In this document: positions 20,440 through 53,173 of the stretch, piece after piece | Position numbering within the stretch: position 1 is the stretch's first letter | Layout of the letters: each line of letters starts with the position of its first letter | Source: Naegleria gruberi | Lineage: Eukaryota | Direction: 5' to 3' (one strand) | DNA length: 64,000 nucleotides | Assembly (NCBI GenBank): GCA_000004985.1 | Contig: GG738885.1 | The notes under the pieces: generated by a model | What the model was told of the DNA's origin: nothing | Seen by the model: the letters and a program-made list of their open reading frames with translations, nothing else | Database searches by the model: none | Position numbers and translations under genes: made by a program

Positions 20440-21340
20440 TCATACTTCCTGTATAATACTACTTAGTACTAAGTGATGTTAATTGTTTCATTTCACTTAT
20501 GAATTTGAATCCTTCTACACTAATTTGATTTCCACCAATATCAAGTGATTTTAATTGTCTCATTTCACTTATAAATTTGGCTCCTTCATCACCAATTTGA
20601 TTTCCACCAATAACAAGTGATTTTAATCGTTTCATTTCACTAATAAATTGACTCCTTCATCACCAATTCGATTGTTATAAATAGTCGAGTGATGTTAATT
20701 GTTTCATTTCACTTATTAATATGGCTCCTTCATCACCAACTCGATTTCTACCAATACCAAGTGATGTTAATCGTTTCATTTCGCTTATTGATTTGACTCC
20801 TTCATCACCAATTCTATTGTAACTAATATCAAGTGATGTTAATTGTTTCATTTCACTTATAAATATGGCTCCTTCATCACCAATTCGATTTTCAGAAATA
20901 TTAAGTGATGTTAATTGTTTCATTTCAATAATAAATTTGACTCCTTCATCACCAATTCGATTGTTATAAATATAAGTGATGTTAATTGTTTCATTTCGCT
21001 TATTGACTTGGCTCCTTCATCACCAATTCGATTTCCACCAATACCAAGTGATGTTAATCGTTTCATTTCACTTATTGATTTGACTCCTTCATCACCAATT
21101 CGATTGTTACTAATATCAAGTGATATTAACTGTTTCATTTCACTTATAAATTTGGCTCCTTCATCACCAATTCGATTTTACAAATATCAAGTGATGTTAA
21201 TTGTTTCATTTCAGTTATGAATGTGGGTTTTTCTATAGAGTCAAACAACCTTTTAGTAAATATAACATTAACAATACTATTCATAAATTGACTTTTCGTG
21301 AATAATTCATTCTTTTCACCAATTCTTTTTAAATATATCA
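20440..21340 (-). pseudogene. degenerate tandem partial copy of the adjacent F-box-like/LRR gene (frameshifted LRR repeats, no N-terminal region)
   Basis: About 12 copies of the 72-nt LRR unit are present (MKQLTSLDISNNRIGDEGVKSISE) with 1-3 nt indels. Three ORF pieces lie in different frames (20675..20923, 20920..21138, 21144..21341). Piece 21144..21341 repeats ELFTKSQFMNSIVNV..RLFDSIEKPTFITEMKQLTSLD from the intact gene. Confidence 0.55.
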
Positions 21341-21960
21341 AGTGATGTTAATCGTGTCATTTCACTTATGAACTTGACTCCTTCATCACCAATTTGATTT
21401 CCGCCAATATCAAGTGATTTTAATTGTTTCATTTCACATATAAATTTGGCTTCTTTATCACCAATTCGATTGTAACATATATCAAGTGATGTTAATTGTT
21501 TCAGTTCACTTATAAATATGGCTCCTTCGTCACCAATTCGATTTTCAGAAATATTAAGTGATGTTAATTGTTTCATTTCACTTATTGATTTGGCTCCTTC
21601 ATCACCAATTCGATTGTTATAAATAGTAAGTGATGTTAATTGTTTCATTTCACATATAAATTTGACTCCTTCATCACCAGTTTGATTGTTATTAATATCA
21701 AGTGATGTTAATTGTTTCATTTCGCTTATTGACTTGGCTCCTTCATCACCAATTTGATTTCCACCAATACCAAGTGATGTTAATCGTTTCATTTCAATTA
21801 TTGATTTGACTCCTTCATCACCAATTCCATTGTTATAAATACCAAGTGATATTAACTGTTTCATTTCACTTATAAATTTGACTCCTTCATCACCAATTCG
21901 ATTGTTACTAATATCAAGTGATGTTAATTGTTTCATTTCAGTTATGAATGTGGGTTTTTC
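20440..21960 (-). repeat. 72-bp tandem coding repeat array (ribonuclease-inhibitor-type LRR units)
   Basis: The unit ...gtgatgttaattgtttcatttcacttat(a/t)aattt(g/t)gctccttcatcaccaattcgatt... is reiterated about 20 times across the pseudogene and the intact gene. Confidence 0.8.
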
Positions 21961-22332
21961 TATAGAGTCAAACAACCTTTTAGAAAATTTAACATTAACA
22001 ATACTATTCATAAATTGACTTTTCGTGAATAATTCAATTCTTTTCTCTGTAAATTTCTTTTTAAATTTAATAAAAAGTTTTGAACGTTCCTTGATCACAT
22101 TAAAGAATTGTTTTGAAATCAAGGAACAATTATTCAAAATAAACCACGAATCATCAATCATGGAAATTATTTCAAAACAAATATCATCGGAAAATATTTC
22201 TTCTCGTTGGAGCGACACTAGTTTTTTCTTTTTTGCCTTCTCCTCCATGTTATTATTATTATGATTGATCACGAGTAGCAGTTCCTCCGAAGTTTTTAGC
22301 TTTTCGAAATCTTGTCTGTTTCGTTTGCTCAT
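21316..22332 (-). CDS. F-box-like N-terminus + leucine-rich repeat (ribonuclease inhibitor type) protein
   Basis: ATG at 22330-32. The N-terminus reads LVSLQREEIFSDDICFEIISMIDDSWFILNNCSLISKQFFNVIKERS (F-box-like). About 9 LRR units of 24 aa follow (EMKQLTSLDISNNRIGDEGVKFIS). A near-identical paralog is at 51994. Confidence 0.8.
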   Translation of the reverse strand: MSKRNRQDFEKLKTSEELLLVINHNNNNMEEKAKKKKLVSLQREEIFSDDICFEIISMIDDSWFILNNCSLISKQFFNVIKERSKLFIKFKKKFTEKRIELFTKSQFMNSIVNVKFSKRLFDSIEKPTFITEMKQLTSLDISNNRIGDEGVKFISEMKQLISLGIYNNGIGDEGVKSIIEMKRLTSLGIGGNQIGDEGAKSISEMKQLTSLDINNNQTGDEGVKFICEMKQLTSLTIYNNRIGDEGAKSISEMKQLTSLNISENRIGDEGAIFISELKQLTSLDICYNRIGDKEAKFICEMKQLKSLDIGGNQIGDEGVKFISEMTRLTSLDIFKKNW

Positions 22333-22556
22333 TTTTTTGTTTGTTAATTTTCATCAGATGCTTACAAAAAAACTGATTCATATTATTAATATTGTAAAAC
22401 CAAGAAGAAAAATAATACTTTGAATTTCGTTGCTGAATCTCATTAGACATGAACTTGCTTTTTGTAAAAAAATCAAAAAAAAAAATGTCAAGAACACTCT
22501 ACATTGCTAATACCCTTCAGTTTGATAGTGAGTTTTTTAAATCAAATTTTTAGATC

Positions 22557-23751
22557 ATGATGATGACGATGATCAACAAAATAGATTTTGTTTCATACAC
22601 TTATACTGATAAATTTGTCAGATTAGAGATTGATGGTAAATCTTCCTTTGCTTTTAGTAATATTATCGGAGGAGATAAGAGTATATTCTTTGTTTGTGCA
22701 TCTTCTAATAGACTGGTCGAGATCAATGCTAAAGAATTTATTAGGCATAAAACACACAATACAGTAAAAACACCTATTACTTTGATTGATCACGATAAAG
22801 ATAATAGAATAGAAATGACAAAGATTGAATACCCAAATTTGATGGAGGACTCTATTGTTTATAATATTCAATATGTTATGGGAAAGGATTATGTGTATTT
22901 AGTGGACAAAAAAGATGGGAATGTTGGATCTTTTTCTCTCACTACAGGTCAATTATTAGTTAACAATTATTCAGATCATAGAGGAATCAGAAAGTTTATC
23001 GCTGGACCTCTTTCTTCTTGTCATGTCGTGCTGACCTATGACGGAACTATTTTTGAGAATGGAAAGGAGGTTGTTTTTTTTTCTACTGATCCACAACCGA
23101 ATATTTTGAGAGCTGCATGTTGTGGAAGAGGATCAATTCTGGCTTCTTCTCATGATCTTTATGCAAGAGGAGGCGATAATGTATTCTTTGTGTTTTCAGA
23201 AAAGTTTGGAGACTACAATCAAAATGTTTCATCAACACAGTTTGTGCATATTGCTAAATTTGAACACGAAATTAGAGATATCCAATGTGGATACTTTCAT
23301 ACTGTGGTTCTTTTGCAGAATAATGAATTATTTGCATGTGGCTACAATTGTTTGAATCAAGCCACTTGGGATAATTCCAGTGGTGAGATTAAACAATTTA
23401 CCAAAATTCAATACTCATTCGGTTATATTGAGAGATTTGGATGTTCCTCAAGAGGTACTTGGGTTGTTAGTGGTGAGTATTTTGTTCTTCTTTTGCTAAT
23501 CTTTTTAAGGTGATGAGGTTACAATGGTAGGAGAGGTTGTTGAACATTTTACAACTTTAGTTTCAAATACAGTTGTTCCAAAAATCATAAAGTTTCATCT
23601 GGAGGGCTTTGCTTGTGATACATTGACGAATTGTGGATGGCACTACGTAATGTACAAGCAAAACTCAAAGAAGAGTAACTATTTCAAAGAAAGACTTCAT
23701 ACCATGGTTGACTCGGAACGAATTTCTGACCTTGATTTCATTTACCAATAA
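22557..23751 (+). CDS. RCC1-like repeat protein, 2 exons
   Basis: Exon 1 is 22557..23472 and exon 2 is 23510..23751 (donor GTGAGT at 23473, acceptor AG at 23508-09, phase-consistent). RCC1-like blades are IQCGYFHTVVLLQNNELFACGYNCLNQ and AACCGRGSILASSHDLYARGGDN. Confidence 0.5.
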
Positions 23752-23912
23752 TTTATGTAAAATCATATTTTTAACTTAATGCCTGTGTAACCATTAATAT
23801 GGTCATTATCCTTCCTTTTGTTACATCCACTAACTCTACCATCCTAAACTGGAATCCATGTCACAGTTAAATCTGATTTGACTTGCAATACCACCGCTCT
23901 TCAACAAAAAAA

Positions 23913-25202
23913 ATGCCAAAACAACAAACAACCAAGAAAACCACAACCAATATCACTGAATCAAAGCAAGCCAAGACAAATATCTTGTTAGCACAGAATG
24001 AATTCTCTTCTGCCCTTTTCTCCCAAGTTGTCGATGAGAGTGCAGTAGATTCCAATGTAATTATTTCTCCATTTTCTATTTACCTGGCCATGATTAATTG
24101 CATGATGGCAACTGGAGGAAATACATTGAAGGAAATGATAAACGGTTTATTCCTTAAGGATAGTTTCGACAGTTGTAAGATGAACGATTTCAATGAACAG
24201 TTCCAACAATGGAAGGAAAGTGAATTGAAGCAGTACTCTACAATGATCAAGAAGATTGTTCAAAATCAGGATGTTTTATCAATTGCAAACAGAATTTATG
24301 TTGAAAAGTCTGTCGATATTAAGAGCGAATTTATTCAAGAATTAGAAGATCAATTTGATTCTGAAACTCAGTTGGCTAATTTCAAGAATGGTACCAAATC
24401 AGAAGTTTCAAAAATTAACAATTGGGTTGCTTCCATCACAAAGAATTCCATTAGAAATTTGATTACTGAACTTGACAAGGAAACACTCATGGTTCTTGTA
24501 AATGCCATCTACTTTAATGGTAAATGGAAGCATCAATTTCTTAAGAATAGAACTGTGGAAACTGCATTCAGAACTGTCAAAGATCCAGAGGGTGACTCAA
24601 CCAATTGCCAAATGATGAGTTTGGAAGATTGTAAAAGTAATTTTTATTTTGAAGAAATAGAAGATTGTCACATTTTAAAATTACCATACACAGACGAAGA
24701 TTATTGTATGCTCATTATCAAACCAGATGATTCCATTGATGTAGACGAGGAAAATGAAATTAGCTTCAACAAATGGATCAATTCAAAATTAACTGATATT
24801 ACCCAAATCTATCCTAAAGAAATGGTAAAGATGAGAAAGATTAGAATTCCTAAATTCAAATTTGAAAAGCAATTCGCCAACATTATTTCCAAAATGTCAG
24901 GCAACCCATTCAATATCAAGTCCTTATTCAATTCTAACACAGCTGATTTTTCCAACATGCTCTCTAATCCAAACACTGATGGAATCTATGTAGATCAAAT
25001 AATTCACAAGGCATGCATTGAAGTGGACGAATGTGGAACTGTTGCAAGTGCAGCAACTGCCATCTCAGCCAGAAAAAAGAGTAAATCTAGCTCTTCTGAA
25101 AAGGTATACGAATTTATTGCAGATAGACCTTTTGCATTCGTATTGAACCACATTCCTACCCAAAGTGTTCTCTTTGTTGGTAAAATTAATCAAATAAATT
25201 AA
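23913..25202 (+). CDS. serpin (serine protease inhibitor)
   Basis: Serpin hallmarks are VVNAIYFNGKWK, a hinge-like EVDECGTVASAATAIS, and the C-terminal FAFVLNHIPTQSVLFVGKINQ. The ORF is open from 23883 (TTG); the first ATG is at 23913. Confidence 0.85.
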   Translation: MPKQQTTKKTTTNITESKQAKTNILLAQNEFSSALFSQVVDESAVDSNVIISPFSIYLAMINCMMATGGNTLKEMINGLFLKDSFDSCKMNDFNEQFQQWKESELKQYSTMIKKIVQNQDVLSIANRIYVEKSVDIKSEFIQELEDQFDSETQLANFKNGTKSEVSKINNWVASITKNSIRNLITELDKETLMVLVNAIYFNGKWKHQFLKNRTVETAFRTVKDPEGDSTNCQMMSLEDCKSNFYFEEIEDCHILKLPYTDEDYCMLIIKPDDSIDVDEENEISFNKWINSKLTDITQIYPKEMVKMRKIRIPKFKFEKQFANIISKMSGNPFNIKSLFNSNTADFSNMLSNPNTDGIYVDQIIHKACIEVDECGTVASAATAISARKKSKSSSSEKVYEFIADRPFAFVLNHIPTQSVLFVGKINQIN

Positions 25203-25240
25203 TAGAATTCTCATTGTTAAATTGAGTATATTTGATAAAG

Positions 25241-26889
25241 TTATAAAATGATAACTTCTTGTGGTGGAGGCGTTAAAGGCTTTGGATTATTTACAATTAT
25301 TGAAATATCTGTGTAAAAATCTGTAACTAATCTACGCTTCATTCTAGCAAATGTCCAAGCTAGCCTAGTATTCTCTTTCTTAGTGAGATAAATGCTACGA
25401 GATTTAGAGCTAGTAAATAATTGATAAGAAAAGGAAGGGTTTTGTAGAAAAGAGTTGGGCAAGAGAATTCTATGAGGTACAGAAATGTCTCCCTCAATCT
25501 TTTCACAATAACTTGAACCAGTGATGTAAAAGTGTCCCTTTTTGGTTCCAAATACAGAACATGCTCTTCCTGCATGAATTGAAGTAATGAGCTCGTTAAC
25601 AGTGTTAATTCTTGTAGGCATATTCCTATCGGAATAATCTCCTAATCCTAATTGGCCATGCTTGTTTCTTCCTGAACAATAAAGCTGATTATTCCTAGTA
25701 AGGAAAAGAGTATGATTCCATCCACAAGCAATCATTGAAATGGATTGGTTGGAAAAGTGCTTCTTATCGATCAGAGTAATATCTGACCTCGATTTAAAGT
25801 CTTGTAACCCAAGTTGACCATAAGAATTCCTTCCACATGCAAAAACTTGTCCTAATTTTGTCAGAAATACAGAATGCAACTCGCCACAAGATGCAAATAT
25901 AACATAATCATTACTCTCCACCAATTCATCAAAGAATGTCAGTCTACTTGGTATTTTTATATCAACATCTCCATACATTTCTCCACAGAAATAGACCTTG
26001 TTGGTTCTTGTTATCATGATGGTATGATACGATCCACAAGCAAGTAGTTTGACCTTCTCATCAATTCTCGTCTTGGAAAGTGTGTTTACTCTACAATAGT
26101 CCTCTCCCAAATAATTTTCATCATTGACACATCCAATCTGTCCATAAATATTATATCCTAATTAGCCAGTTGCATGAATTTTGTAATAATATTAGACCAA
26201 AACCAATGTTCCACCAACAACTTACCCACTCCATACACCTGTCCATCTTTTGTCAATATCATACTATTTCTTTTACCACAAGCAATGTCTTTAATTTCTA
26301 AATCTTCCAAACAAAATTTCAAAATGTGTTTGTATACAGTAGAGTGTACAGTGCTACTAATATTCAATTGAGAATCAGCATTCTTTCCAATTGCAAATAT
26401 CCTATTCTTACTTGTTAAAATTAGAGTATGCCAAGATCCAGATTCAATCTTTTCAATATTTTCATCAATATCCAATACAGTAGACTTGATACTTTTCACT
26501 TGATGATCAATATTATTCATGCACAAGACTCCACCTTTACAGAATGCATTCATCCTATTGTTTTTGTGAGGGATCTTTACAAAGTGATCAATTTGCTCTG
26601 TTTCTTCTTGTTGTTGCAACTGGGAATCAACAATTAAAACATGTTCTTCAACAAATTCATCACCATACACAAATAATTCATTGGTTCTTAAAGGCTTTCT
26701 CTGTAAAATCTTGATCAACTTGTCATCATCAAGCACAGTTTCGGAACAATTAATTTCCTCATTAAATAATAGCAAGGAACCACTACTAGATGAATGTTGA
26801 TGATTACTACTACTAGTAGTATTATGATTATTATTAATTAATAGAAAGGGAACAACAGTCGTATCATCATCATAAATAATTTGCGTCAT
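25241..26889 (-). CDS. RCC1-repeat protein, 2 exons
   Basis: Exon 1 is 26226..26889 and exon 2 is 25241..26157 (donor GTAAGT, acceptor ...AATTAG, phase-consistent). The junction gives ...GQVYGVG|GYNIYGQIG. RCC1 blades are ACGWNHTLFLTRNNQLYCSGRNKHGQLGLGDYSDR and ASCGELHSVFLTKLGQVFACGRNSYGQLGLQD. Confidence 0.75.
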
Positions 26890-27087
26890 GGATGATGATA
26901 ATTTGGAACTAAATCACGGAATATTATCGGTTGTTACTTGTAAATAATTCAAGTCCTTTCGGGACATTAAATTTGTTGCTTTTGGTGTTGTTGGATTTTT
27001 TTGATTTTTTTAAAATACAAAAAATAATATTAAATTATTTAAAAAATTAGTTTTAAATATTGTAAATTAATAAATAGAGAAATGATT

Positions 27088-28729
27088 CTAAATCAATAGA
27101 GCAGTTGGTTTTTTCTTCTTTTCACAATCAACTGGTGCAACAAATTTTTCCAAAATAAAAAAGGCAATCAAGCAAGCAACATAGGAGCAAGCAATAATAA
27201 TTTGAATCGTATTTACAGTGAGATAAATTCCACAGAAAAATCCAACAGCTGATGATAGAGATTGAGTCATCTTGAATGCTGCAAAGGCCTCAGCAGTATT
27301 CTTCTTCTTGTAGTAATTCTTACTTCCCAATATTCCATAAATTGTGTTTGTGAGGAAACTATCTGAAAGTCCAAATAAGGCCATATTCACAAAGAATAAC
27401 AAATAAATTGGTGCATTAAAGCTTTCATCCAATTTGTTATCCTTCAATTCCTTTCCCCAATAGACCATTTGAGAACTAAGGGCAATTGCAATACAATAAA
27501 TAACCAGAGTAAAGATCATGGTCACTCGTTTTCCAATCTTGTCAAGCATTTTACCAGAAATTAAAGCACCAGACACTTGAGTAATACCAAACATTATCAT
27601 GACCCATCCCAACATTGTTTTACCAACAATAGGTGGTAAACTGCCAGTAAAGTATGAAGATCCAAATCCACTGTGGAATGAAATGACACTAAAGACCAAC
27701 ATTTTAGGAGAAACCAACACCAGAATGGATTCTTTCAATAGAGCTACAAATTGCTTTGCCTGGCCAGATAATTCCTCAGTGAAATATACCTTAATTTTGT
27801 GAATAATCTTGTTAAAGTAAGATCCACCAATAGCTCCATAAGTTGGTTCATCTGTTGGTGCTTTTTCTTCATCTATATCCTCAACTTCGCTCTTCGATAT
27901 TGGTCTAATAGCAAGCATTAAACCAACACCCACAACAGCAATAATTGACAAGATGAGAAACAGTTGAAAATTAGACATTCCAGCTCCAAACAAAGCTCCA
28001 GCAAGAGAATTTCCAAAAATTGAATTCAATTGAAAAATTGCAAAGAAAACTCCAGAAAACAAGCCCATAACTTCCACACTCTTTTTTCCACTTTCATCAT
28101 TCGATTGAGATTTCTTCACCTTATTCTGTGCAACAACTGCACTTTGTGTAATCATTGTTCCTTGAGCACACCATACTATTCGATGAATTTGAATCATTGA
28201 AATTCATTTACCACCAAAACAATTACTTACCCATAGCTGCACCAAATCCATTCACAACTGATGCCGAATAGAACAAGACTGTCGACTCAAATCCAGCAGC
28301 AAACACAAACAAACAATAACACAAAGCTCCTATAATGCATGCATACTTTGGAGTCAATAATTGACAAAAGGAAGGAGCAAAGAAATTGGAAAATGCAAAT
28401 ACTGCATACAATATCGAGAGTGACACAAATCCCTCCGACTTTCTCACAGTAGTAACAAATGATTGTGTTGTACCAAAGGCTGCAAATAACAAAAAGAAGG
28501 AAAATCCAAGAATGACCACATTGAAGAATCCCTTATTTAAAAACGAAGGTCCCAATACTTGTTTTAAAAATCCAAACTTTTGTGAATTCATCTTCTTATA
28601 ACTCGAATCTTTTGTTACTAATGAAATTTCCACTACAACTTCTTCGGAAGGTGGATCATCACCATCATTATTGGTACTTCCTCTCCTCGGTGAGTGTATC
28701 ACCATATGTAATGGTTTATCTTCATCCAT
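27088..28729 (-). CDS. MFS-type transporter, UNC93-like/MFSD11-like, 2 exons
   Basis: Exon 1 is 28231..28729 and exon 2 is 27088..28175 (donor GTAAGT, acceptor ...GAATAG, phase 1). About 11-12 hydrophobic TM segments are present. The layout resembles UNC-93-like proteins. Confidence 0.5.
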
Positions 28730-29070
28730 ATTATTATTACTATTATTAATTGTTATCCAAAATATATATTAAAATATATATAATAATTTAAATGAATTTA
28801 TGTGAAGCTGAACGTTCAGACAACAAGTAACAGGACGACAGTGCTGTTTGCTTTTTCTTTTTTTTGATGATTTTCCTTGGATTTGCTAAACAAGCATGTC
28901 GGAGAGCGGGAAAATGAACCGTTGAATTGTCATAATATTTTGTAAACTGTGTATCAATTTGTTAGTGTTGCCAAAGGTAGAATGGGAAGAACAAGTTCAA
29001 TAGATGATATTTCAACTGAAATGTTTAAATAATAGAATATCTTTAAAAAAAATACGAAACTTTGAGCAAG

Positions 29071-30147
29071 ATGGGTTTGATGGAAAAATTCAAGATTAAA
29101 TCGAGTAAAGATGATGATGATAATTCCATCAAATTACCTCCAATTAATAGCAATAATTATTCTAATACTAATTTTCGAATAATTCCTGAGGAAAGTTCTT
29201 TAAACAATGTCAAGAATTTGAAGAATACAAAAGTAATCAAGATTGAAAATTCAAAACTCATGATGAAAACAATGCAAATTGTGCAAGATTCAATTTTTGA
29301 TTTTCTTACCATTGTCGATTTGATTCAAATTGAATCGGCTTGTCATGCTTTTAATGAGATGGTAGTTTCGTATTTTGAAAGTAGAAATGCTGTTTGGTGG
29401 GCAAGAGCTTGGCAAATTCACTTTCTTAATGAAATGGACAAGGAGATTGATTCTAATTATCAATCGGTTATTGGAACTATCAATTCGAGAACTGAAAATA
29501 CCTCAACACGAAATACTTATACTGCCAGTAGAAATTCAATTGAGGAAATTGAAAATAATTATCCATTTGTGTATTCAAATAATCAAAACGAAACAACTGA
29601 CGATACAAATGACGAACCAAATGATGAATATTACGGACAAAGGAATTATACTGAACTAGTCATTGATTCCAAACAGCAAATTGATCAATTATTCGAAAAT
29701 GGAGGATTCATCCAAGATGCCACTCATTTAAAATACTCATCCAGTGGTAAGAGTGGCTCAGCAGATGGCATATTCTCAATTCCTCTCATCAACTTGATTG
29801 ATTTTAAAGAAAATATTCCTTCACACTCCTTCTCCCAACGAGAAAAACACGAAAGATCACCAATTGTTCTGACAATTGAATCTTTTTTAAGGAAATTCTT
29901 CAAATTACTTTTGAATAATTGGTGGCTCGCCTCCAGAAATCAAAAATCAAAAAATCAAAACACAAATGAAGAACAACTCATTCTCACAAATTCACACATC
30001 TCACGAAAGCAACAGAGAGGTTACGATAAATATGGACCTGTCTACAGTACAGAGAATATCAAGACATTTTCAATTAGGTATAGAGCACATAACACACCTG
30101 AAACTATTCTTTGCTCCCTCACTAATGTTTGTTCATACTATGGATAA
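29071..30147 (+). CDS. hypothetical protein (N/D-rich, possible F-box-like segment)
   Basis: The ORF is open from 29062 (TTG); an ATG is at 29071 (MGLMEKFKIK...). Only a weak F-box-like stretch is seen (IVQDSIFDFLTIVDLIQIESACHAFNEMV). Confidence 0.4.
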   Translation: MGLMEKFKIKSSKDDDDNSIKLPPINSNNYSNTNFRIIPEESSLNNVKNLKNTKVIKIENSKLMMKTMQIVQDSIFDFLTIVDLIQIESACHAFNEMVVSYFESRNAVWWARAWQIHFLNEMDKEIDSNYQSVIGTINSRTENTSTRNTYTASRNSIEEIENNYPFVYSNNQNETTDDTNDEPNDEYYGQRNYTELVIDSKQQIDQLFENGGFIQDATHLKYSSSGKSGSADGIFSIPLINLIDFKENIPSHSFSQREKHERSPIVLTIESFLRKFFKLLLNNWWLASRNQKSKNQNTNEEQLILTNSHISRKQQRGYDKYGPVYSTENIKTFSIRYRAHNTPETILCSLTNVCSYYG

Positions 30148-30441
30148 TGTAAATGAATAAGAAAGATTTGAATTTTTTATGTTACAATATGAAATTTCAA
30201 TACATACTTTGCTAAATTTCCCGATTTGCTCCAATCAATAGATTACAACATTGTTCAAGTAGTAAATCGGTTGTGTGACATTTCGAATAGTATCTTCCTT
30301 TACGCTAAATCGATTCTAGTTGACAGCAGTGATGTTTTATGTGTTCTAACTTGTTATTGATGAGAAAATGGATGGTTCCAGTTTGTAGATCTTTTCAAGT
30401 CATGACATCAGTCAACAATCAACAATTCAAACTTTAAAAAA

Positions 30442-32261: not shown

Positions 32262-32304
32262 AGTGTTTTAATAAACTTTACAATAAATTAAAATATTTAA
32301 AAAA

Positions 32305-42201: not shown

Positions 42202-42324
42202 TTATTACTGGAACTTTTCATGACAATTATTATCTCTGTGGGAAAACACAATAAAATTTGGTTGTTACCACTGTTGAAATAAATTGTAAAACGCATTGAA
42301 ATTACATATTTTAATAAAATGGAT

Positions 42325-42445: not shown

Positions 42446-42447
42446 TT
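42443..42447 (+). terminator. Pol III T-run terminator after 5S copy 2
   Basis: TTTTT at the 3' end. Confidence 0.5.
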
Positions 42448-42641
42448 GCTTTTGCCCAATTATAGTTTCTTTATTACTTGTCTTTAAGAAATAGAAATGA
42501 GTGGTAAGACGAATTGTTAAAGTTTCTCAGAGTGTAATTTTCCTTTCTCTTCCAAAAACACACAATTTTGAGCTAATTCGTTTAAACTGTTGTACCCACC
42601 ACCTTCACATAACGCGTTGATAGTCCAGTTGACAGAAAAAA

Positions 42642-44741: not shown

Positions 44742-45300
44742 AGTGTCCAAAAGATGCAATAAAACAAGTATTATGTAATATTTAAAAAAGATAAAACTGC
44801 AGAGAACACTTCAGTCGTCGTATTTATTTGCCGTATGATTGCTACTAGATTATAAAACTCATCATCTACTCGATTAGTTTTATTGAAAAAGTTGTTTTAA
44901 CTTGTGGTTTCCAATATTTGAATTTTGTTTCCAAATTGAACTTTCATTGAGTCTATTGAAAACTGTTGAAATGGATCTTTCAATTCTTCAAGGTTTTGCT
45001 AAGTATTGAAACGCATTTTCATCCAATGAACGATAATGGTGAAATATTGAGAAATTGTACAAATTGTTTATCAAATGGAAATACAGAAATTATTAAATTC
45101 CGTAATATTGATTTTTGATTCTCTGGATTGTAATCTCAATAATTAATAAAAATCTGTAATTGAAAAAATCAAAAATTACATTTAAAAAAAATGTCTGAAA
45201 GCAATCAAGTAAATTTCCTTCCAATTTATTTTTAAGAAACTTTAATATCATCTTGTTTTAATAATATATTAAAATTATTTAATATTCTTACTATTTACTA

Positions 45301-46377
45301 ATGAAATTACAGAAAATTCTAATACTCGATGGAGGTATTTCTACATACATGACAGAATTAGGACTAGAATTGAATGGTTCCTTGTGGGGAGCAAATTATT
45401 TACTGGAAAATCCGAAAGCCATCGCGAAGGTACATTCCGATTATGTTCATGAGGGATTGTGTGATATTTGCACAAGTAGTAGTTATCAAATTTCTCAGGA
45501 GGGACTTGCTGCTGATCATGTTTCAATGAAGGAGGAGGAAAGAATTGAATTGGCCAGTAGGATGTTTCGGGATTCTGTTCAGATTGCTAGAAAAGTTGTT
45601 AGAGAGAAGGAGAAATTGGTGGCTGCAAGTGTTAGTTGTTTTGGAGCATCAATTTCAAATTTACTTGGAGAGGCAAAGGAATATTTTGGTGATTATTTGG
45701 ATGAGGATGCTGATTCGAATAGTGGACATTATGTTCACAAGTTTGTGAAACAATTGAGTGAAAAATTGGGTGAAACTTTGGAAAAATCTGGAATGGAACA
45801 AGTAATTTATGATTTTCACTATCCAAGAGTGAGAGAATTGATATTGGCTGAGCCAGATTTTATCTTGTTGGAGACAATGCCTGTTTTGAAGGAAGTTGAA
45901 ATTTTATGTGATCGAGTCATTCCAGATATTTTGAAGGAGTTGAATAAGAAAGGTATCAAAGTGATGATATCATTCTATTGTAAAGATGGCTTACACACTG
46001 GACATGGAGAAAGTATTGAGAAATGTGTCGAGTATGTCAATCAAGATAGGTTTAATCCATCATTATTTGAGATTTTTGCTGTTGGGGCAAACTGTATTTC
46101 TCCATCTATAGTTCCAATTTTAATTGAAAATATTCACACTCATCTCAGAAAGGATATTTCCATCATTCTCTATCCTAACAGTGGTGAAATTTACGATAAT
46201 CTCACAAAATCTTGGAGCATACCACAGGGTGGATTGGATTGGCTTTATGATAGAGATTTTATTCCATTCATCAAGAAATGGAGTGAAAACCATCCAGAAA
46301 GAAAGTTGGTAATTGGTGGCTGTTGTAGAACTAATCCAAGAAATATTAAGAAATTGGCCAATTCCTTAAACCATTAG
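45301..46377 (+). CDS. homocysteine S-methyltransferase (Pfam S-methyl_trans family)
   Basis: The N-terminus is ILDGGISTYMTELG...LWGANYLLENPKAIAKVHSDYVHEGLCDICTSSSYQ. The C-terminal zinc-ligand motif is VIGGCCRTNPRNIKKL. Confidence 0.7.
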   Translation: MKLQKILILDGGISTYMTELGLELNGSLWGANYLLENPKAIAKVHSDYVHEGLCDICTSSSYQISQEGLAADHVSMKEEERIELASRMFRDSVQIARKVVREKEKLVAASVSCFGASISNLLGEAKEYFGDYLDEDADSNSGHYVHKFVKQLSEKLGETLEKSGMEQVIYDFHYPRVRELILAEPDFILLETMPVLKEVEILCDRVIPDILKELNKKGIKVMISFYCKDGLHTGHGESIEKCVEYVNQDRFNPSLFEIFAVGANCISPSIVPILIENIHTHLRKDISIILYPNSGEIYDNLTKSWSIPQGGLDWLYDRDFIPFIKKWSENHPERKLVIGGCCRTNPRNIKKLANSLNH

Positions 46378-46414
46378 ATATTGCAATATTATAAATAGAA
46401 AAACTTGAAAAAAA

Positions 46415-47626
46415 ATGGCAACAGATCCAACAGACTCATACCGATTCGACGAACCAGTACTTTTTGAAACTATAGAACTAGATGAAGCCTTACTTGTGGA
46501 AAAACATTCCGCCTTAATGACGACATCTTTGTCACCATTCAGGACCACAACAATACCCAAAATGCTCCCTTACACCGAACTACCAAGAGATTTTTCCAAA
46601 ATTTGCTTGGGCTCTGTGATAGTGAAGAGTATGTTTACACCACATGATGATGAGCACATTACTAATTTACCACTAATTGGTGCCGGGTCTTTACTTTCTC
46701 CAATTATGAAAAATTGTGGCTCAAAGGTTTTCATTTCAACTGCACTCCACAATGTTTTAAAGCTTGGAAATTCTTTGGTGAAGTTGGAGGTCCAGTTTGG
46801 TAAACAAGCAGCCCATCCATTATTTGTTTTGTGTGGAAAGATTGTTAGTCATGGAAGACCTTTGTTTCCACTGAAATGTTATCCGAATGAAGATTGGGCT
46901 ATTTTGGAAATACTTGAAAAAACAAGTGGGGAGATTTTTGAAATGTTTATAGATCACCACGATTATACTTTTGTACCAAGCTTTATGATTCCGAGACCTT
47001 CAAAAGTGGAGAAAACTATTCTCAATGATAGATATTCATTGGCTTTGTTCTCCTTTCTTTTGCACCATTATGGACCAACAAGTGAAGATATTGAGGTTTT
47101 GAAACGACAAGGTCATCATGATATTCCTCTCCTAAAGGAACAAATCATGGAATGGATTGAGACTGGTGTAATGTATGGAAGTTTTGGATATGGAACAAAA
47201 ATCTCCAAACAAACTCTCCTTCATTCAGTTGGAACTTTAAGTGCTTGTTCAGGAGCAATGGTTATTGGTGTAGATTTACCATTGGGTAAAGATATGGTTA
47301 TATTTAAGGACCATCTCAAGTCGGTTAGTTTCAATAAGATAAATGCTATTGGAATACATGTTGGTTATGGAGAGGACCAACAACATAATGTGTTGTGTCC
47401 AGTTAGTGTATGGTTTGAAAATTATTATAGAATTGTCTATCCAGAAATTTGTAATTATTTAACCAATGATGACAAAAGAAGAATTCAAAAAGAAGCCATA
47501 TTCATGCAGAGACTGGATAAATATCAAAGACATAAGATGATGACATTAGCATTTTGCGACGTGAAGATTATTTGTCAAGAAAAATCAAATAGCAGAGAAG
47601 ACGGAGCTTGTTGTAAAATAGTTTAA
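46415..47626 (+). CDS. hypothetical protein (possible trypsin-like fold: ACSGAMVIG)
   Basis: 403-aa ORF with an ATG start. No confident domain is recognised. Confidence 0.35.
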   Translation: MATDPTDSYRFDEPVLFETIELDEALLVEKHSALMTTSLSPFRTTTIPKMLPYTELPRDFSKICLGSVIVKSMFTPHDDEHITNLPLIGAGSLLSPIMKNCGSKVFISTALHNVLKLGNSLVKLEVQFGKQAAHPLFVLCGKIVSHGRPLFPLKCYPNEDWAILEILEKTSGEIFEMFIDHHDYTFVPSFMIPRPSKVEKTILNDRYSLALFSFLLHHYGPTSEDIEVLKRQGHHDIPLLKEQIMEWIETGVMYGSFGYGTKISKQTLLHSVGTLSACSGAMVIGVDLPLGKDMVIFKDHLKSVSFNKINAIGIHVGYGEDQQHNVLCPVSVWFENYYRIVYPEICNYLTNDDKRRIQKEAIFMQRLDKYQRHKMMTLAFCDVKIICQEKSNSREDGACCKIV

Positions 47627-47682
47627 GATTGCAATCGAACCCACAAGGGAGTATTTAAATCCAAGTTATCATCAAATTTTAT

Positions 47683-50600
47683 TTAAACAATTTCAATATC
47701 ACAAATTTCAATATTTTCCTTGTGTGAAGAAAGTCTAATGGTTACCATTTGTCTCTTTTCATCTGGTCTCATATAATTAGAAAAGAAGGTACACAAAATA
47801 GTTGTGCCACCAGTTAAGCTTTGGGAATGGCTACTGAAATAATTGGTTGTTGCCTTGTATGTTCCCTTTGGAGCTTTCTTTACCATGTATTCCTCAGGTC
47901 CGTAACCTTGTCTGAAATCTCTACTCACTAATTGGGATAGAGAAAATGAAATTTAACATAATACACCTTGTGAATTACTTACCGTATCCTCCAATTCTTG
48001 TTCTATTATGAGCAAAGTATGCATGTTCCCCGTGTGGAGCTGGCTCATTAACGTGCAAATCCTAATTGAATTATTAATACAAATATCTTACAATAAAACT
48101 TACAATATCCTATAAAGGTGTGATTAACATGTCAAAGTGATTAAAAATACTTACAACCATATCTGTATCCCATGCCATTGAGATACGAATATCCAAATCA
48201 AAGTTATGAATGAATCTCTTATCAATAATTGGAAGATCTGGATTCTTGAGTAAGAGATGGTTCATCTCAGTGGCAACTGTTAATTCAATTTCATCGAAAC
48301 GAGAATCCCATTTGTCAGTGATAACTCTATTGAATAATTTCATAGATTCTTCATACTTTCCCATTCTTTCCTTGACAAGGGCCAAATCTCTGTAAGATTG
48401 AGGCTCGTGTGGTGAAATCTTTTTAATCTTTTCGAATACCCATTCAGCAAGTTCCAATTCATCTGCTTGATCCAAACGATATCCAACAATACGATACAAT
48501 TGAACATTTTCCAATTCCAATTCAGCAACATTTGACAAAACTCTAACTCCCAACTCTCTAGAATTGAGTGATGTGAGGAACATGTCAGCAACATCCAAAT
48601 AGAAAGCTGGTGAATCTCTGTAGGATTTTCTTTGTTTAAGATATTCCTTGTATGGATTACTTGATGATTTGATCAATGAGTAATAAGTAGCATCTGGACT
48701 CCATGCTTTAATTGAGATTGATCCAGAAACACTAGATGATGATTCCTCAACTACACTAGCTACACTGGAGGATTGTTGCTCACTTGATGACAAAATATTT
48801 CTTTGTCTAATATCACCAAGTAATGATGAACTTGCAGTGACGCTACTCTCTGCACAACGAGATCTACTGAGTACAGGTGAAATAGCTGATCTACTTATAC
48901 TTTGTGATTGAGGAATACTTGACATGGAAGGTCTTGAAGGAGGGGGACCAGATGATAATGGTGGAGGAACTGCTGTAGACTGTTTTCCTGAAGAAGGTGG
49001 AGGTGGCAAACAGTCAGATCTCATCGATAGAGAAGGTGGAGGTGGAGGTGGACTTGACAAACATTCATCACGACTCATAATTAGTGAGTCGGCACTATTC
49101 TCAGTGCACCACTCTTCACACTCTTCGTCACAACATAACTCCACTTCTTCATTCAATGTAATAGGGCAAGAAACAGCATCCATTCCTGGAGGAGGAGGTG
49201 GAGGTAACAACAGATCATTGCTATTGTTATTATTATTATTATTATTGTAGATATTAATGGAACCAGTTGTTGTAATTTCACTTGTAGTACTTGTAATTGT
49301 ACTTGAAGGTAATTCATTGAGTCTAATTTCATTTACAGTTTGACGAATAGGTTGAATTTCTGGCAATTTAAAGTCAGTTTTGTGCCAATCGACACGTTGC
49401 TTCCACATTGAAAGAATTCTTTCAGTCTTTTGTTGTTCTTGTTTGAGTTTTGAATCAGCTTCTTCCTTCTTGAGCTTTTTAAACTCACCCAAAACAAGTG
49501 GAAGAGACTCTGGTGGAGTAATGTCATGTTTCAAGTATTGATCTAACTTTTCCAAAACTACAAGTGAAGAAGAATCAGTTACAATTCTGAAATCAAAGCC
49601 AATTTGTTTGATTTCTTCCTTAAATAAGTGTGGGAATGCTGAGAGACATTCAATTTTCTTTTGAGCCCACAAATAAGGAACAATTGGAGCATCAGTTTGA
49701 GTCATTTCACTAATTGGAAGGACAAGTTCTTGTACATGGAAGACGTTTGATCCGTATCTGAAGGAAACAGCAAGTTTTGTACTGGAATTGGTTGATTTCT
49801 TATTGAACATACCATAGAGTTTGAAGATTTCTCCTTCGACCAAGGTAATTGGTTCATTTGGATAAACTTCTGTCAAGTCTGCATCTTCAAAATCTGCAAC
49901 TGCAAATGAAAGCACTGGTTTACCAATGGAATTAATAAGTTCGTCATCGCTCAATTCATTAGCATTCAAATAAATGCCACCACTCTTTGTGGAAATGTGT
50001 TTCAATAGAGTTGAGTTGACAATTGAAGAAAAGTTGACAAAGTAAATTGGCTTTCCGAATGAGCACATTGGTCCAATTTCATGTCCAAATGTATGGACAC
50101 CATCTGTAAAGGCAATGCAGTAATCTACACTATCATTCAATAAATTCTTATCAAAGAGTAACATGTTAGATCCACCATCATAGACAAACTCTTCAGATTC
50201 GACATATTTCAATAAATCATCAATATTGGTGAATGTTTGACTCTTAATGGTGGTACAACTGAATTGAGTCAATTCAATAGAGGTAGCACCTACACCTTCA
50301 ATGATCTTTCTAAGTTTGGCAACTTTCTTTGAGTGTGCTGCTTCTTGAGAAAGAGAGCAATCCCAAACAAGTTGAATCTTGTCTCCAATTCTTGATTGAT
50401 TCTTCAATTGTTCTGGAATTTTAGGAACTGGAACTGATGTCATGAAATAACCATTCTCAACTGCCAAGAGAATGTCATTGACACTTGTGGCTTCCTTCTT
50501 GATTGAGAAATTGAAACCTGCCATGTTTTCGCTCATTTGGTTTTTAGTAATTTGGAAATAGGCGCTTCTCTTACTGACATTCTTGCTTGTCCACAATAAT

Positions 50601-51493
50601 TGATTTTCCTTCTCAATCTTTTCTCCACCAAATTTAGATAAACTCATTGACAATTCAGTTTCATATCCTTGTAGAGAAGTTTCATTCAATGTGAATTCAA
50701 TATTGGTATCAGAACGTAACTTTTCAAAATCCAAATATGCAACTGGAATGAAAACACTTCCTTGGAGAGTTCCTGTTTCTTGATCTTTAGATTCAACTTT
50801 TTCTTTCAACATCATTTGATATTTGACTTGAACTGTCTTGTCTTGATTTGGATGCATTGGATAAACCTTTGTCTTGAAACAATTAGAAGCTTGAGTCAAC
50901 TTTTCAACAATTGAAACAGTTCCTCCAGCTCTAACTTCACTTTCGAATACAGCTTTTGCCTTTTCCTTCTCAACTGGGACAGCATCAACCAATTTACCAT
51001 TCACTTCCATTGCATAACCCATCATAGTTGCTCCATCAGGCATTGGCAACACTAATTCACCTTCAATTGTTTTACCATGTGGACTATTAAATGTCATAGT
51101 AGAAACCACTTGAACAATAGGATAAGTAACATGACATTTAACATGATGAGAAACTAATGGCAACAATGTGGATGCTTTATCGGAAAACTTCTCTCCAGTT
51201 ACTTGGACATGAATAAAACTATCGGTTGGAAGATCCTTCTTGCTGGTAGTAGTTGTGGTTGCAATTTCTTTTTTGTCATCGGTTGCATTTGTGGTTGTAT
51301 TTGTAGTTGAACTAATTGATGGTTGACTTGTTTCTTGTGGTTTGTCCAAAACTTCAGTTTTTGCTGGAGTTGTTGCCGTTGGTTGTTTGCTGGATGTTGT
51401 TTCTGTGTTGTTTGGTGTCGTTGATGATTTTTCAAGTTCACTTATTTCTTCATCGACAGCAGCTGCTGATTTCTTACTTTTAAAAAAGCCCAT
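47683..51493 (-). CDS. VIT + von Willebrand A domain protein with poly-Pro/Ser linker and conserved C-terminal region; 3-4 exons
   Basis: The main exon is 48110..51493 (on the minus strand it runs from 51493 down to ~48141; the ORF-track stop at 48110 is intronic). A VIT-like block is HVKCHVTYPIVQVVSTMTFNSPHGKTIEGELVLPMPDGATMMGYAMEVNGK. A vWA-like block is QLVWDCSLSQE...FVYDGGSNMLL. PPPPPP runs are present. At the 3' end, a donor GTAAGT after ...DTDMV is followed by a small exon (~48004..48082, DLHVNEPAPHGEHAYFAHNRTRIGGY), another GTAAGT intron, and a final exon 47683..47928. All junctions are phase-consistent. Confidence 0.6.
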
Positions 51494-51708
51494 TTTTTTT
51501 TTTTGATTTTCTGAGATTATGTTAACTCCATCTGTTCTTTTTATGATCTAAAGGAAGAAGGATGTGTGAACATGATCCAGGGAGTTACGATTAGTTCTTC
51601 GAGACCAAAAATTCACTAAAACAATGGCTTGTAAGCAAATGGTAATAGATAACTCCTCTATGACTTTTGATAATGAGAAATAATCATCATTTAAGTTTTT
51701 TTAATGCG

Positions 51709-51714
51709 AAAAAA
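51709..51714 (-). terminator. Pol III T-run (T6) terminator downstream of tRNA-Ile
   Basis: AAAAAA on the + strand, 5 nt beyond the tRNA 3' end. Confidence 0.5.
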
Positions 51715-51719
51715 CTGCA

Positions 51720-51792
51720 TGCTGACGGACGGGATCGAACCGGCGACCAATGGCTTATTAGACCAACGCTCTACCGACTGAGCTACGCCAGC
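51720..51792 (-). tRNA. tRNA-Ile (anticodon AAT)
   Basis: The minus-strand read is GCTGGCG-TA-GCTC-AGTCGGTA-GAGC-G-TTGGT-CTAATAA-GCCAT-TGGTC-GCCGG-TTCGATC-CCGTC-CGTCAGC-A. The D-arm and T-loop (TTCGATC) are canonical. The acceptor has one G-U pair and the T-stem has one mismatch. Confidence 0.8.
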
Positions 51793-51993
51793 TTCACAAT
51801 GATCTAACACCTTAATGAACTAGCCAAATACCTAATTTCCAATACAAATTATAGTTGTTTTCTTTTAGCTGGTGGGAATTATAAAAGATGTCACATTTCA
51901 AAGAACATCAGAAAACTTGCAAAAAAAATAGCAAACAAAGCAGACAAGATTTTGAAAATTAATTTCGGAGGATGAACTATTCATCAATACAAC

Positions 51994-53173
51994 ATGGAGA
52001 AAGCAAAAAAGAAAAAACTAGTGTCGCTCCAACGAGAAGAAATATTTTCCGATGATATTTGTTTTGAAATAATTTCCATGATTGATAATTCGTGGTTTAT
52101 TTTGAATAATTGTTCCTTGATTTCAAAACAATTCTTTAATGTGATCAAGGAACGTTCAAAACTTTTTATTAAATTTAAAAAGAAATTTACAGAGAAAAGA
52201 ATTAAATTATTCATGAAGAGTCAATTTATGAATAGTATTGTTAATGTTAAATTTTCTAAAAGGTTGTTTGATTCTATAGAAAAACCCACATTCATAACTG
52301 AAATGAAACAATTAACTTCACTTGATATTAGTAACAATCGAATTGGTTATGTAACAGCCGAATCAATAATAAGTGAAATGAAACAGTTAACATCATTTAA
52401 TATTAGTGGAAATAGCATTGATGATGAAACAGCCAAATCAATAACTGAAATGAAACAATTAACTTCACTTGATATTAGTAACAATGGAATTGGTGATGAA
52501 ACAGCCGAATCAATAATAAGTGAAATGAAACAATTAACATCATTTAATATTGGTGGAAATATCATTGGTGATGAAGGAGCCAAATCAATAAGTGAAATGA
52601 AACAATTAACATCACTTAGTGTTAATAACAGTGGAATTGGTGTAGCAGGAGCCAAATTTATAAGTGAAATGAAACAACTAACATTACTTGATATTGGTGA
52701 AAATTCAAGTGGTGTAGCAGGAGCCAAATTTATAAGTGAAATGAAACAATTAACATCACTTAATATTGGTGGAAATAGCGTTGGTGTAGAAGGAATCAAA
52801 TATATAAGTGAAATGAAACAATTAACATCACTTACTATTTATAACAGTGGAATTATTGAAATTAACACTACTTGATATTGGTAGAAATGATATTGGTGAT
52901 GAAGGAATCAAATCAATAATTGAAATGAAACAATTAACTAAACTTGATATTAGTGGAAATAGCATTGGTGTAGAAGGAGTAAAATCAATACGAAAACTGA
53001 AACAATTAATATCACTTGATATATGCTACAACGAAATTGGTGTAGAAGGAGCCAAATCAATACGTAAAATGAAACAATTAACATCACTTGCTATTCGTGA
53101 AAATGGTATTCGTGATGAAGGAGCCAAATTTATATTTGGAATGAAGCAATTAAAATCACTTGATATTCAGTAG
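51994..53173 (+). CDS. F-box-like + LRR (RI-type) protein, inverted paralog of 21316..22332; reading frame broken near 52855-52865
   Basis: ORF 51994..52875 has an N-terminus more than 95% identical at nucleotide level to the 21316..22332 gene. ORF 52847..53173 continues the LRRs in another frame. The junction NSGIIEINTT lacks about 8 nt relative to the repeat consensus (gaaat[gaaacaat]taaca). Confidence 0.7.

What the first reader, a model, noticed from the sequence alone, without database searches (positions are those of the whole stretch)
21316..53173. Near-identical inverted LRR (F-box-like/RI-type) gene pair bracketing about 29.6 kb
The first ~450 nt of the CDS at 22332 (minus strand) and at 51994 (plus strand) are almost base-for-base identical: MEEKAKKKKLVSLQREEIFSDDICFEIISMIDDSWFILNNC... 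versus MEKAKKKKLVSLQREEIFSDDICFEIISMIDNSWFILNNC.... Both are followed by the same 72-nt LRR units. The two copies are divergently oriented, so both 5' ends face the interior. This level of identity implies recent duplication or gene conversion. Such inverted repeats can mediate inversion of the intervening ~30-kb block, which holds about 18 genes and one 5S copy.
Basis: seen in the sequence. Interest (0 to 1): 0.6.

Follow-up and report, generated by a model that had tools for sequence, protein, structure and literature searches.

The report
Inverted F-box/LRR paralog pair in Naegleria
Two young, partly damaged copies of one F-box/leucine-rich-repeat gene lie in opposite orientation about 29.5 kb apart in the published Naegleria gruberi genome; this is ordinary gene-family turnover, and nothing here shows that the stretch between them ever flips.

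Summary
The inverted repeat is real, but shorter than described. The near-identical core is 354 nt at 98% identity (374 nt at 96%), at A 21892-22248 (-) and B 51994-52347 (+). Beyond it, the 72-nt LRR units are only 75-88% identical in any register.

The window is Naegleria gruberi NEG-M: five ORFs match GenBank proteins exactly. Both genes belong to a Naegleria family with a divergent F-box followed by 24-residue RI-like LRRs. The F-box call rests on Pfam hits to 12 of 16 aligned N-terminal domains, a three-helix AlphaFold model and fold matches to FBXL2/FBXL17.

The duplicated unit is gene-sized: A locus 20449-22360, B locus 51906-53183. Both loci are damaged:
- A is cut short by an internal tandem duplication, and the downstream remnant A' carries three frame breaks.
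- B has lost the family start codon and carries a 32-nt frame-shifting deletion.

In the core, dS is 0.064 and dN 0.010. In the LRRs, dS is 0.175 and dN 0.225. The identity contrast therefore comes mainly from nonsynonymous change. A gene-conversion patch is possible but not demonstrated (silent sites, p = 0.08-0.12).

Inversion of the interval is only a theoretical possibility. No close relative or read data could be examined. Interest is low.

The parts
21316..22332 (-). Copy A: 338-aa ORF with an N-terminal extension (28 aa), a divergent F-box, a linker and about 8.5 LRR units of 24 aa. It ends prematurely ('...SLDIFKKNW*') at the junction of an internal tandem duplication.
   Evidence: ORF. 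LRR_6 at 1e-38. The extension 'MSKRNRQDFE' is shared with N. gruberi XP_002680560.1 'MRKRNRQDLE'. Unit map. Junction.
21892..22248 (-). Near-identical core, A arm (357 nt including one extra GAG codon): F-box, linker and the first two-thirds (48 nt) of LRR unit 1.
   Evidence: 7 substitutions plus one codon indel over 354 aligned nt, 98.0% identity; 4 synonymous and 3 nonsynonymous changes. The repeat finder arm 21870-22243 at 96%.
51994..52347 (+). Near-identical core, B arm (354 nt).
20449..21341 (-). A': a promoterless, F-box-less partial copy. It holds the linker from 'KRI.ELFTKSQF...' plus 11 LRR units, with three frame breaks. It ends in the ancestral stop codon and the shared 3' tag AGTAGTATTATACAG.
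   Evidence: ORF fragments 20675-20923, 20920-21138 and 21144-21341. 71-nt units and a disrupted unit A'8. A3/A'3 and A6/A'5 are 98.6% identical. The linker carries A-specific bases. The 3' homology with B ends at 20449.
51906..51993 (+). Decayed remnant of the 28-codon N-terminal extension upstream of B's ATG. The ancestral ATG is lost through a 1-nt deletion, and there are further indels.
   Evidence: Alignments: 72 of 99 columns identical, 5 indels. Sequence.
51994..52875 (+). Copy B: 293-aa ORF starting at the internal Met, with F-box, linker and about 7.5 LRR units. A 40-nt partial unit (a 32-nt deficit) at about 52853-52860 shifts the frame.
   Evidence: ORF. LRR_6 at 9e-21. Anchor spacing of 112 instead of 72. 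Sequence.
52847..53183 (+). B continuation in another frame: 4 more LRR units, the ancestral stop codon and the shared 3' tag. This is the end of the duplicated unit.
   Evidence: ORF 52847-53173. LRR_6 at 1e-19. 3' homology with A' up to 53183.
22361..51905 (.). Unique interval of 29,545 nt between the two copies. It encodes RCC1-like proteins, a serpin, UNC-93/MFS, TPR39, DUF4116 proteins, Nop56, an EGF-repeat protein, a homocysteine S-methyltransferase and a VIT protein, plus one 5S rRNA gene and one tRNA-Ile.
   Evidence: There is no other inverted homology between the flanks.

Best explanation
The window is from Naegleria gruberi NEG-M. A gene-sized segment of about 1.3 kb was duplicated in inverted orientation about 29.5 kb away. 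The segment ran from about 30 nt upstream of the start codon to 15 nt past the stop codon of an F-box/LRR gene. That gene is a presumptive SCF ubiquitin-ligase substrate adaptor belonging to a Naegleria-specific multigene family.

The duplication is young: silent divergence is about 0.06-0.17. Since then the F-box and linker have changed little and mostly synonymously, indicating purifying selection in at least one copy. The LRR arrays have diverged fast, by nonsynonymous substitution and by gain and loss of repeat units:
- A-lineage: tandem duplication of the linker plus 8 units.
- B-lineage: duplication of a two-unit block, and a 32-nt deletion.

Both loci now carry disabling lesions, so this is birth-and-death evolution of a rapidly turning-over receptor-like family. 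The inverted repeat is a by-product of that history.

Shown: the repeat anatomy, the organism, family membership, the substitution pattern and the lesions. Inferred: the SCF adaptor role, the order of events and selection on the core.
For: Organism:
- Exact protein matches to EFC41476.1, EFC41469.1, EFC41471.1, EFC41472.1 and EFC41468.1, all on one 362,555-bp N. gruberi scaffold.

Family:
- An exhaustive HMMER search with the 114-aa N-terminus finds 25 cluster representatives at E <= 1e-3. All six that could be traced to a named organism (of ten looked up) are N. gruberi LRR proteins. The best, XP_002680560.1, is 71% identical and has the same N-terminal extension.

F-box:
- 12 of 16 aligned N-terminal domains of the family match Pfam F-box.
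- The model built from a 23-sequence alignment has mean pLDDT 87 and three helices before the solenoid.
- Foldseek gives full-length alignments to FBXL2-SKP1 and FBXL17.

Extent of the duplicate:
- 5' homology runs to about 22360/51906.
- 3' homology ends at 20449/53183, with a shared TAG stop and tag.

Substitution pattern:
- Core: dS 0.064, dN 0.010, with 3 nonsynonymous changes out of 7 (my hand binomial against neutrality, p about 0.025).
- LRRs: dS 0.175, dN 0.225.
- The nonsynonymous contrast has p = 5e-16, while the synonymous contrast has only p = 0.08.

Unit turnover and lesions.
Against: - Substitutions in the decayed stretch upstream of B's ATG (9 of 81 aligned bases, plus 5 indels) are significantly denser than in the core (7 of 354; p = 7e-4). 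The fall at codon 119 is abrupt. Both are also what a conversion tract would produce.
- If B is a dead pseudogene, selection cannot explain its conserved core.
- In-register LRR comparisons are blurred by unit shuffling, so the LRR dS and dN are approximate.
- No expression data are available, and Skp1 binding is not shown.
Confidence: 0.6

Rival explanations
1. The duplication is older, and a recent ectopic gene-conversion tract of about 350 nt homogenised only the F-box/linker block between the two inverted copies. On this reading the 98% block reports the date of the last conversion, not the age of the duplication.
For: The block has sharp boundaries on both sides. Upstream, identity is 72.7% with 5 indels against 98% inside (all-site substitutions p = 7e-4). 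Downstream, 8 differences fall in the first 17 nt after position 354. Silent divergence is about 2.7-fold lower inside (0.064 against 0.175). Identity among in-register A and A' units is patchy, from 85% to 98.6%, which shows that short-tract homogenisation does occur in these arrays. From general knowledge, the tract length is typical of eukaryotic conversion tracts.
Against: The silent-site contrast is not significant (p = 0.08 against the LRRs; p = 0.12 against the LRRs plus the upstream stretch). The downstream boundary coincides with the start of the LRR variable positions, where dN/dS is about 1.3, so selection alone predicts a step there. The upstream boundary coincides with sequence that is no longer coding in B.
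Confidence: 0.3
2. The pair is an active substrate for non-allelic homologous recombination. A crossover inside the 354-nt core inverts the 29.5-kb interval. That would attach A's intact 5' end (ATG and promoter side) to B's LRR array and B's decayed 5' end to A's array, giving a structural polymorphism or even a two-state switch.
For: The geometry is right: the arms are inverted, both 5' ends face the interior, and the core is 354 nt at 98% identity. From general knowledge, this exceeds the roughly 200-300 bp usually cited as the minimum for efficient homologous recombination. Only A retains the ancestral start codon.
Against: No observation of the alternative orientation is possible here. 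B's LRR array is itself frame-shifted, so a switch would not yield a full-length product. Short repeats of 98% identity recombine rarely. The interval holds about 15 ordinary housekeeping-type genes. No literature on N. gruberi inversions was found.
Confidence: 0.04
3. The pair is an assembly artefact: allelic or collapsed repeat copies wrongly placed or oriented.
For: LRR arrays are hard to assemble. From my own knowledge, the published assembly is an older whole-genome shotgun assembly.
Against: There are no gaps in the window. The two copies have unique, unrelated flanks. Their unit numbers and LRR arrays are very different, with a mean of 75.5% identity between units, and they carry 7 substitutions plus an indel in the core. 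The 32-nt deficit in B is not a whole-unit collapse.
Confidence: 0.03

Closest known systems
FBXL-type F-box/LRR substrate receptors of SCF ubiquitin ligases (e.g. human FBXL2, FBXL17, Skp2)
   Same: The architecture is the same: an N-terminal three-helix F-box immediately followed by an alpha/beta LRR solenoid. The model aligns over its full length with FBXL2 (6o60_C) and FBXL17 (6wcq_B, 6w66_B) taken from SKP1 complexes. Family relatives match Pfam F-box and F-box-like.
   Different: A and B themselves fall below the Pfam F-box thresholds: they have FSDD in place of LPxE and KQFF in place of KxW. The repeats are 24 residues long and score as LRR_6 (RI-like), unlike the 26-residue cysteine-containing LRRs of FBXLs (that type comparison is from my own knowledge). 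Sequence identity to the solved structures is only 15-18%. Skp1 binding is untested.
Lineage-specific, rapidly evolving F-box gene expansions (plants, Caenorhabditis) evolving by birth and death. This comparison is from my own knowledge, not tested here.
   Same: Many paralogues are confined to one lineage (25 cluster representatives). The adaptor domain is conserved while the substrate-binding repeats are fast-evolving, with dN/dS about 1.3 against 0.16. Truncated or frame-shifted members are frequent, including family members that end in the out-of-frame 'NW*'.
   Different: Here the variable domain is a very homogeneous 72-nt LRR array that also changes by unit duplication and deletion. No test for positive selection on specific sites was possible with only two sequences.
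Inverted low-copy repeats that mediate inversions by non-allelic homologous recombination (e.g. human inversion polymorphisms flanked by inverted segmental duplications). This comparison is from my own knowledge.
   Same: Two inverted, highly similar segments bracket a unique interval.
   Different: The identical core is only about 0.35 kb, compared with the kilobases to hundreds of kilobases typical of recurrent inversions. No alternative orientation has been observed.

Membership tests
F-box proteins | The sequence matches an F-box profile (Pfam PF00646 or PF12937) at significance. | tested here: not met
   A and B, both full-length and N-terminus alone, give no F-box hit even at E <= 10. 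The PDB profile search returns only the FBXO42 F-box at E = 1.9, which is not significant.
F-box proteins | Homology to proteins that do match the F-box profiles (transitive membership). | tested here: met
   phmmer links the A N-terminus to family members at E from 1e-46 to 1e-8. Of the 16 aligned N-terminal domains, 12 match F-box (best 1.4e-5) and 11 match F-box-like (best 5.3e-6).
F-box proteins | A three-helix F-box fold placed directly N-terminal to the substrate-binding domain. | tested here: met
   The AlphaFold2 model with the family alignment has pLDDT above 90 from about residue 45 and helices at 49-57, 62-67 and 74-83 before the first strand. Alignments of 252-275 columns to FBXL2 and FBXL17 chains.
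F-box proteins | Binds Skp1 and assembles into an SCF ligase. | not testable with these tools
   Requires pull-down or yeast two-hybrid with N. gruberi Skp1.
RI-like (LRR_6) leucine-rich repeat proteins | Tandem LRR units matching LRR_6 and forming an alpha/beta horseshoe. | tested here: met
   LRR_6 at E = 1e-38 (A), 9e-21 (B) and 1e-19 (B tail). Alternating strand and helix in every 24 residues. Ribonuclease inhibitor structures rank 2, 3, 6 and 7 in Foldseek. The unit length of 24 aa is shorter than the canonical 28-29 aa of RI, from my own knowledge.
Inverted repeats that mediate inversion by homologous recombination | Inverted orientation with a long stretch of high identity. | tested here: met
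   374 nt at 96% and 354 nt at 98% identity, in inverted orientation.
Inverted repeats that mediate inversion by homologous recombination | Both orientations of the intervening segment are observed (in reads, strains or sister species). | not testable with these tools
   No reads are available. The contig look-ups tried for N. gruberi proteins all came back not on record. The N. fowleri and N. lovaniensis loci around the VIT orthologue share no neighbours with this window.
Gene-conversion tract | Silent-site divergence inside the tract is significantly lower than in the flanking homologous sequence. | tested here: inconclusive
   pS is 4/64.8 inside against 14.7/94 in the LRRs (p = 0.08), and against the LRRs plus upstream p = 0.12. 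All-site substitutions against the upstream stretch give p = 7e-4, but that stretch is non-coding in B.
Pseudogenes / decaying duplicates | Loss of the start codon, frameshifts or premature stops relative to the family's ORF. | tested here: met
   A' has three frame breaks and no N-terminus. B has lost the ancestral ATG and has a 32-nt frame-shifting deficit. A has a premature stop at the duplication junction. Whether the shortened A and B ORFs are still expressed and functional is unknown.

The most novel reading that the evidence does not exclude
The locus could be a recombinational variation system for an LRR receptor. The intact 5' end (start codon and F-box) lies inside the invertible interval. 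Crossover or conversion within the 354-nt core would alternately couple it to the A or the B LRR array. The promoterless, frame-broken A' array would serve as a silent donor of LRR cassettes, which the patchy 85-98.6% unit identities might reflect. That would be a eukaryotic, amoebal analogue of invertible or cassette-based receptor diversification.
Probability: 0.03. Interest if true: 0.8.

Novelty: new member of a known kind. Interest (0 to 1): 0.18.

Why it matters
If the ordinary reading holds, it matters little. It documents one more young duplicate in a lineage-specific F-box/LRR family of a published genome. It also shows that N. gruberi has such a family with a divergent F-box that standard Pfam scans miss in some members.

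It would matter more if N. gruberi strains turned out to be polymorphic for the orientation of the 29.5-kb block, or if the LRR arrays exchanged cassettes. The locus would then be a tractable example of receptor-repertoire diversification in a free-living amoeba that hosts Legionella and giant viruses.

Tried and rejected
- **Direct protein search with the N-terminus.** The 122-aa N-terminus against the 5.8-billion-protein index found nothing. A profile search found only one ENA fragment. That tool did not return N. gruberi proteins, although they are in the collection. The exhaustive representative search was needed instead.
- **Exact-protein contig look-ups.** Look-ups for A, the GDSL lipase and XP_002680560.1 all returned "not on record". 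N. gruberi genomic context outside the window could not be read.
- **Synteny test.** The VIT protein's orthologues were used as anchors. The N. fowleri and N. lovaniensis loci share no neighbouring genes with the window, or with each other, so they say nothing about the ancestral orientation.
- **Dictyostelid origin.** This was my first guess from composition and gene content. It was rejected by the Naegleria hits and the exact matches.
- **An intron rescuing B's frame break.** The only GT...AG candidate is about 38 nt long and does not restore the frame. The unit is simply 32 nt short.
- **Retroposition as the duplication mechanism.** It was considered because the duplicate is gene-sized. Neither 3' end shows a poly(A) remnant, so it is not supported.
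- **Single-sequence AlphaFold.** It gave an unusable N-terminus, with pLDDT below 50.
- **GenBank gene models for A and B.** Whether A or B has a GenBank gene model could not be settled. The exact ORF translations are absent from the collection, and accession order is not strictly positional.
- **Literature searches.** Searches for a described N. gruberi F-box/LRR family or for inversions found nothing specific.


Full report
**Observation**

The longest inverted repeat in the window has arms 21870-22243 and 51996-52369: 374 nt, 96% complementary, 29,752 nt apart. The arms lie at the 5' ends of ORF A (21316-22332, minus strand, 338 aa) and ORF B (51994-52875, plus strand, 293 aa).

A base-by-base comparison from A's inner ATG (22248) and B's ATG (51994) gives 7 substitutions and one codon indel in 354 nt, or 98.0% identity. 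Identity then collapses: 8 differences fall in the next 17 nt, starting at codon 119 inside the first LRR unit.

All other inverted matches are LRR units matching each other at 74-84% in many registers. The core observation is nevertheless correct and far beyond chance. The window has no N runs.

**Organism**

The window has 33% GC and is gene-dense. It carries two dispersed 5S genes, a U2 snRNA gene and two tRNA genes. The VIT-domain protein encoded at 48110-51493 is 53-57% identical to N. fowleri and N. lovaniensis proteins.

Five window ORFs are exact matches to Naegleria gruberi NEG-M GenBank proteins on one 362,555-bp scaffold: EFC41468.1, EFC41469.1 (Nop56), EFC41471.1, EFC41472.1 and EFC41476.1. 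The sequence therefore comes from the published N. gruberi genome.

**What the genes are**

- LRRs. Both ORFs, and the out-of-frame continuation of B, match Pfam LRR_6 strongly (1e-38, 9e-21, 1e-19).
- N-terminus of A and B. It has no Pfam hit even at E <= 10.
- Family. An exhaustive HMMER search with the N-terminus finds 25 cluster representatives. All six traced to a named organism (of ten looked up) are N. gruberi predicted LRR proteins. The closest, XP_002680560.1, is 71% identical.
- F-box. In an alignment of 16 N-terminal domains the consensus reads F(S/P)DD.C.EI.SF...F.L.NC.L(I/V)SKQW.NVI. Twelve members match Pfam F-box and eleven match F-box-like, with best E-values around 1e-5.
- Structure. 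With a 23-sequence family alignment AlphaFold2 gives a confident model (mean pLDDT 87). It has three short helices (49-57, 62-67, 74-83) followed by a strand/helix solenoid.
- Fold matches. Foldseek returns ribonuclease inhibitors, NLR LRR domains, bacterial LRR effectors (RipG4, LegL1) and full-length alignments to FBXL2 and FBXL17 from SKP1 complexes.

The label "F-box-like / RI-type LRR" is thus supported, by transitive homology and predicted fold rather than by a direct profile hit. An SCF substrate-adaptor role is inferred from this architecture and was not tested.

**Anatomy of the two loci**

- True start codon. The closest relative shares A's N-terminal extension (MRKRNRQDLE... against MSKRNRQDFE...). 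The ATG at 22332 is therefore the family's start codon.
- 5' end of B. The homologous stretch (51906-51993) is only 72.7% identical, has five indels, and has lost the ATG through a 1-nt deletion.
- 3' end. The last LRR unit, a TAG stop and the tag AGTAGTATTATACAG are shared between B (to 53183) and a region 0.9 kb downstream of A's stop codon (to 20449). No homology follows on either side.
- Size of the duplicate. It was gene-sized: the A locus spans 20449-22360 and the B locus 51906-53183, leaving 29,545 nt of unique sequence between them.
- A locus. It is longer because of an internal tandem duplication. After 8.5 units the array runs into a second copy of the linker ('...KRI.ELFTKSQFMNSIVNV...') and 11 more units (A'). 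The junction creates A's stop codon. A' has two 71-nt units and one disrupted unit. The A' linker carries A-specific bases, so this event came after the A/B split.
- B locus. It has its own two-unit duplication: B1/B3 are 96% identical and B2/B4 90%. A 40-nt partial unit shifts the frame near 52860, and no plausible intron repairs it.

Both loci are therefore damaged relative to the ancestral ORF.

**Why the 5' block is so similar**

| Region | dS | dN | Counts |
|---|---|---|---|
| Core | 0.064 | 0.010 | 4 synonymous, 3 nonsynonymous |
| In-register LRR region | 0.175 | 0.225 | 14.7 synonymous, 70.3 nonsynonymous |

These values come from Nei-Gojobori counts.

The nonsynonymous contrast is overwhelming (p = 5e-16). 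The synonymous contrast is not significant: p = 0.08, or p = 0.12 when the upstream stretch is pooled with the LRRs. Most of the 98%-versus-80% step therefore reflects conservation of the F-box and linker against fast, roughly neutral or diversifying change in the LRRs. Unit shuffling adds to this: no A-B unit pair exceeds 88%, and the mean is 75.5%.

A conversion patch remains a serious alternative. The boundaries are sharp, and the upstream stretch has significantly more substitutions than the core (p = 7e-4). Short-tract homogenisation is also visible between A and A' units, whose identities range from 85% to 98.6%. I rate a young duplication with heterogeneous selection at about 0.6 and a conversion patch at about 0.3. 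The two are not mutually exclusive.

**Inversion**

The geometry would allow it. A crossover in the core would invert 22.4-51.9 kb and swap the two 5' regions between the LRR arrays. Nothing available here tests this. The contig look-ups tried for N. gruberi proteins returned nothing. The N. fowleri and N. lovaniensis loci around the VIT orthologue have unrelated neighbours. No relevant literature was found. It remains a generic possibility attached to any inverted paralogue pair.

An assembly artefact is unlikely. The flanks are unique, the arrays differ, the core has diagnostic differences and the sequence has no gaps.

**Verdict**

This is a real but ordinary feature: a young, inverted, gene-sized duplicate of a member of a Naegleria F-box/LRR family, with both copies decaying or being remodelled. 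It is a new member of a known kind, of low interest. The only high-interest reading is a recombinational switch or cassette system for LRR diversification. It is not excluded, but it has no positive support.

Noticed in passing
window 17475-17608 and 42316-42449; U2 at 17877-18064: Two dispersed 5S rRNA genes form a 134-nt direct repeat at 97% identity, about 24.8 kb apart. One lies outside and one inside the bracketed interval. The first sits about 275 nt upstream of a U2 snRNA gene. Dispersed 5S genes fit Naegleria, whose large rRNA genes sit on an extrachromosomal plasmid (PMC12482156).
   Followed up: partly
window 51720-51792 (-): A tRNA-Ile(AAU) gene lies about 200 nt upstream of B's ATG, just beyond the 5' end of the duplicated segment (51906). 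A tRNA-Val(UAC) gene lies at 60866-60939.
   Followed up: no
window 33283-35032 (-) and 42642-44741 (+): DUF4116-repeat genes also occur in opposite orientations inside the interval. They are only distantly related (26% identity, BLASTP E = 5e-11) and share no DNA-level repeat.
   Followed up: partly
window 22557-23513 (+) and 25241-26889 (-): RCC1-repeat genes flank a serpin gene (23883-25202). The ORF pairs 25241-26110 with 26158-26889, and 27088-28197 with 28223-28729 (UNC-93/MFS), look like single genes split by short introns.
   Followed up: no
A ORF end near 21316; P0014 (XP_002680560.1) C-terminus: A ends '...SLDIFKKNW*' and the N. gruberi relative ends '...SLDIGDNPNW*'. The LRR consensus CGAATTGGTGATGAAGGA reads N-W-stop in the +1 frame. 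Any frameshift in these arrays therefore terminates quickly with 'NW'. This suggests that annotated family members also include frame-shifted, truncated genes.
   Followed up: partly
window 39514-40189 and 37005-37330: There are internal tandem repeats with periods of 117 and 237 nt in the EGF-repeat gene (37967-40993, -). There is also a lysine/glutamate-rich 9/18/57-nt repeat in the 3' part of the Nop56 gene.
   Followed up: no
protein search tools (versus 33, 35): The word-indexed protein search returned no N. gruberi proteins, even for queries with near-identical N. gruberi relatives that are in the collection. The exhaustive representative search did return them. Negative results from the indexed search should not be read as absence for this genome.
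   Followed up: partly
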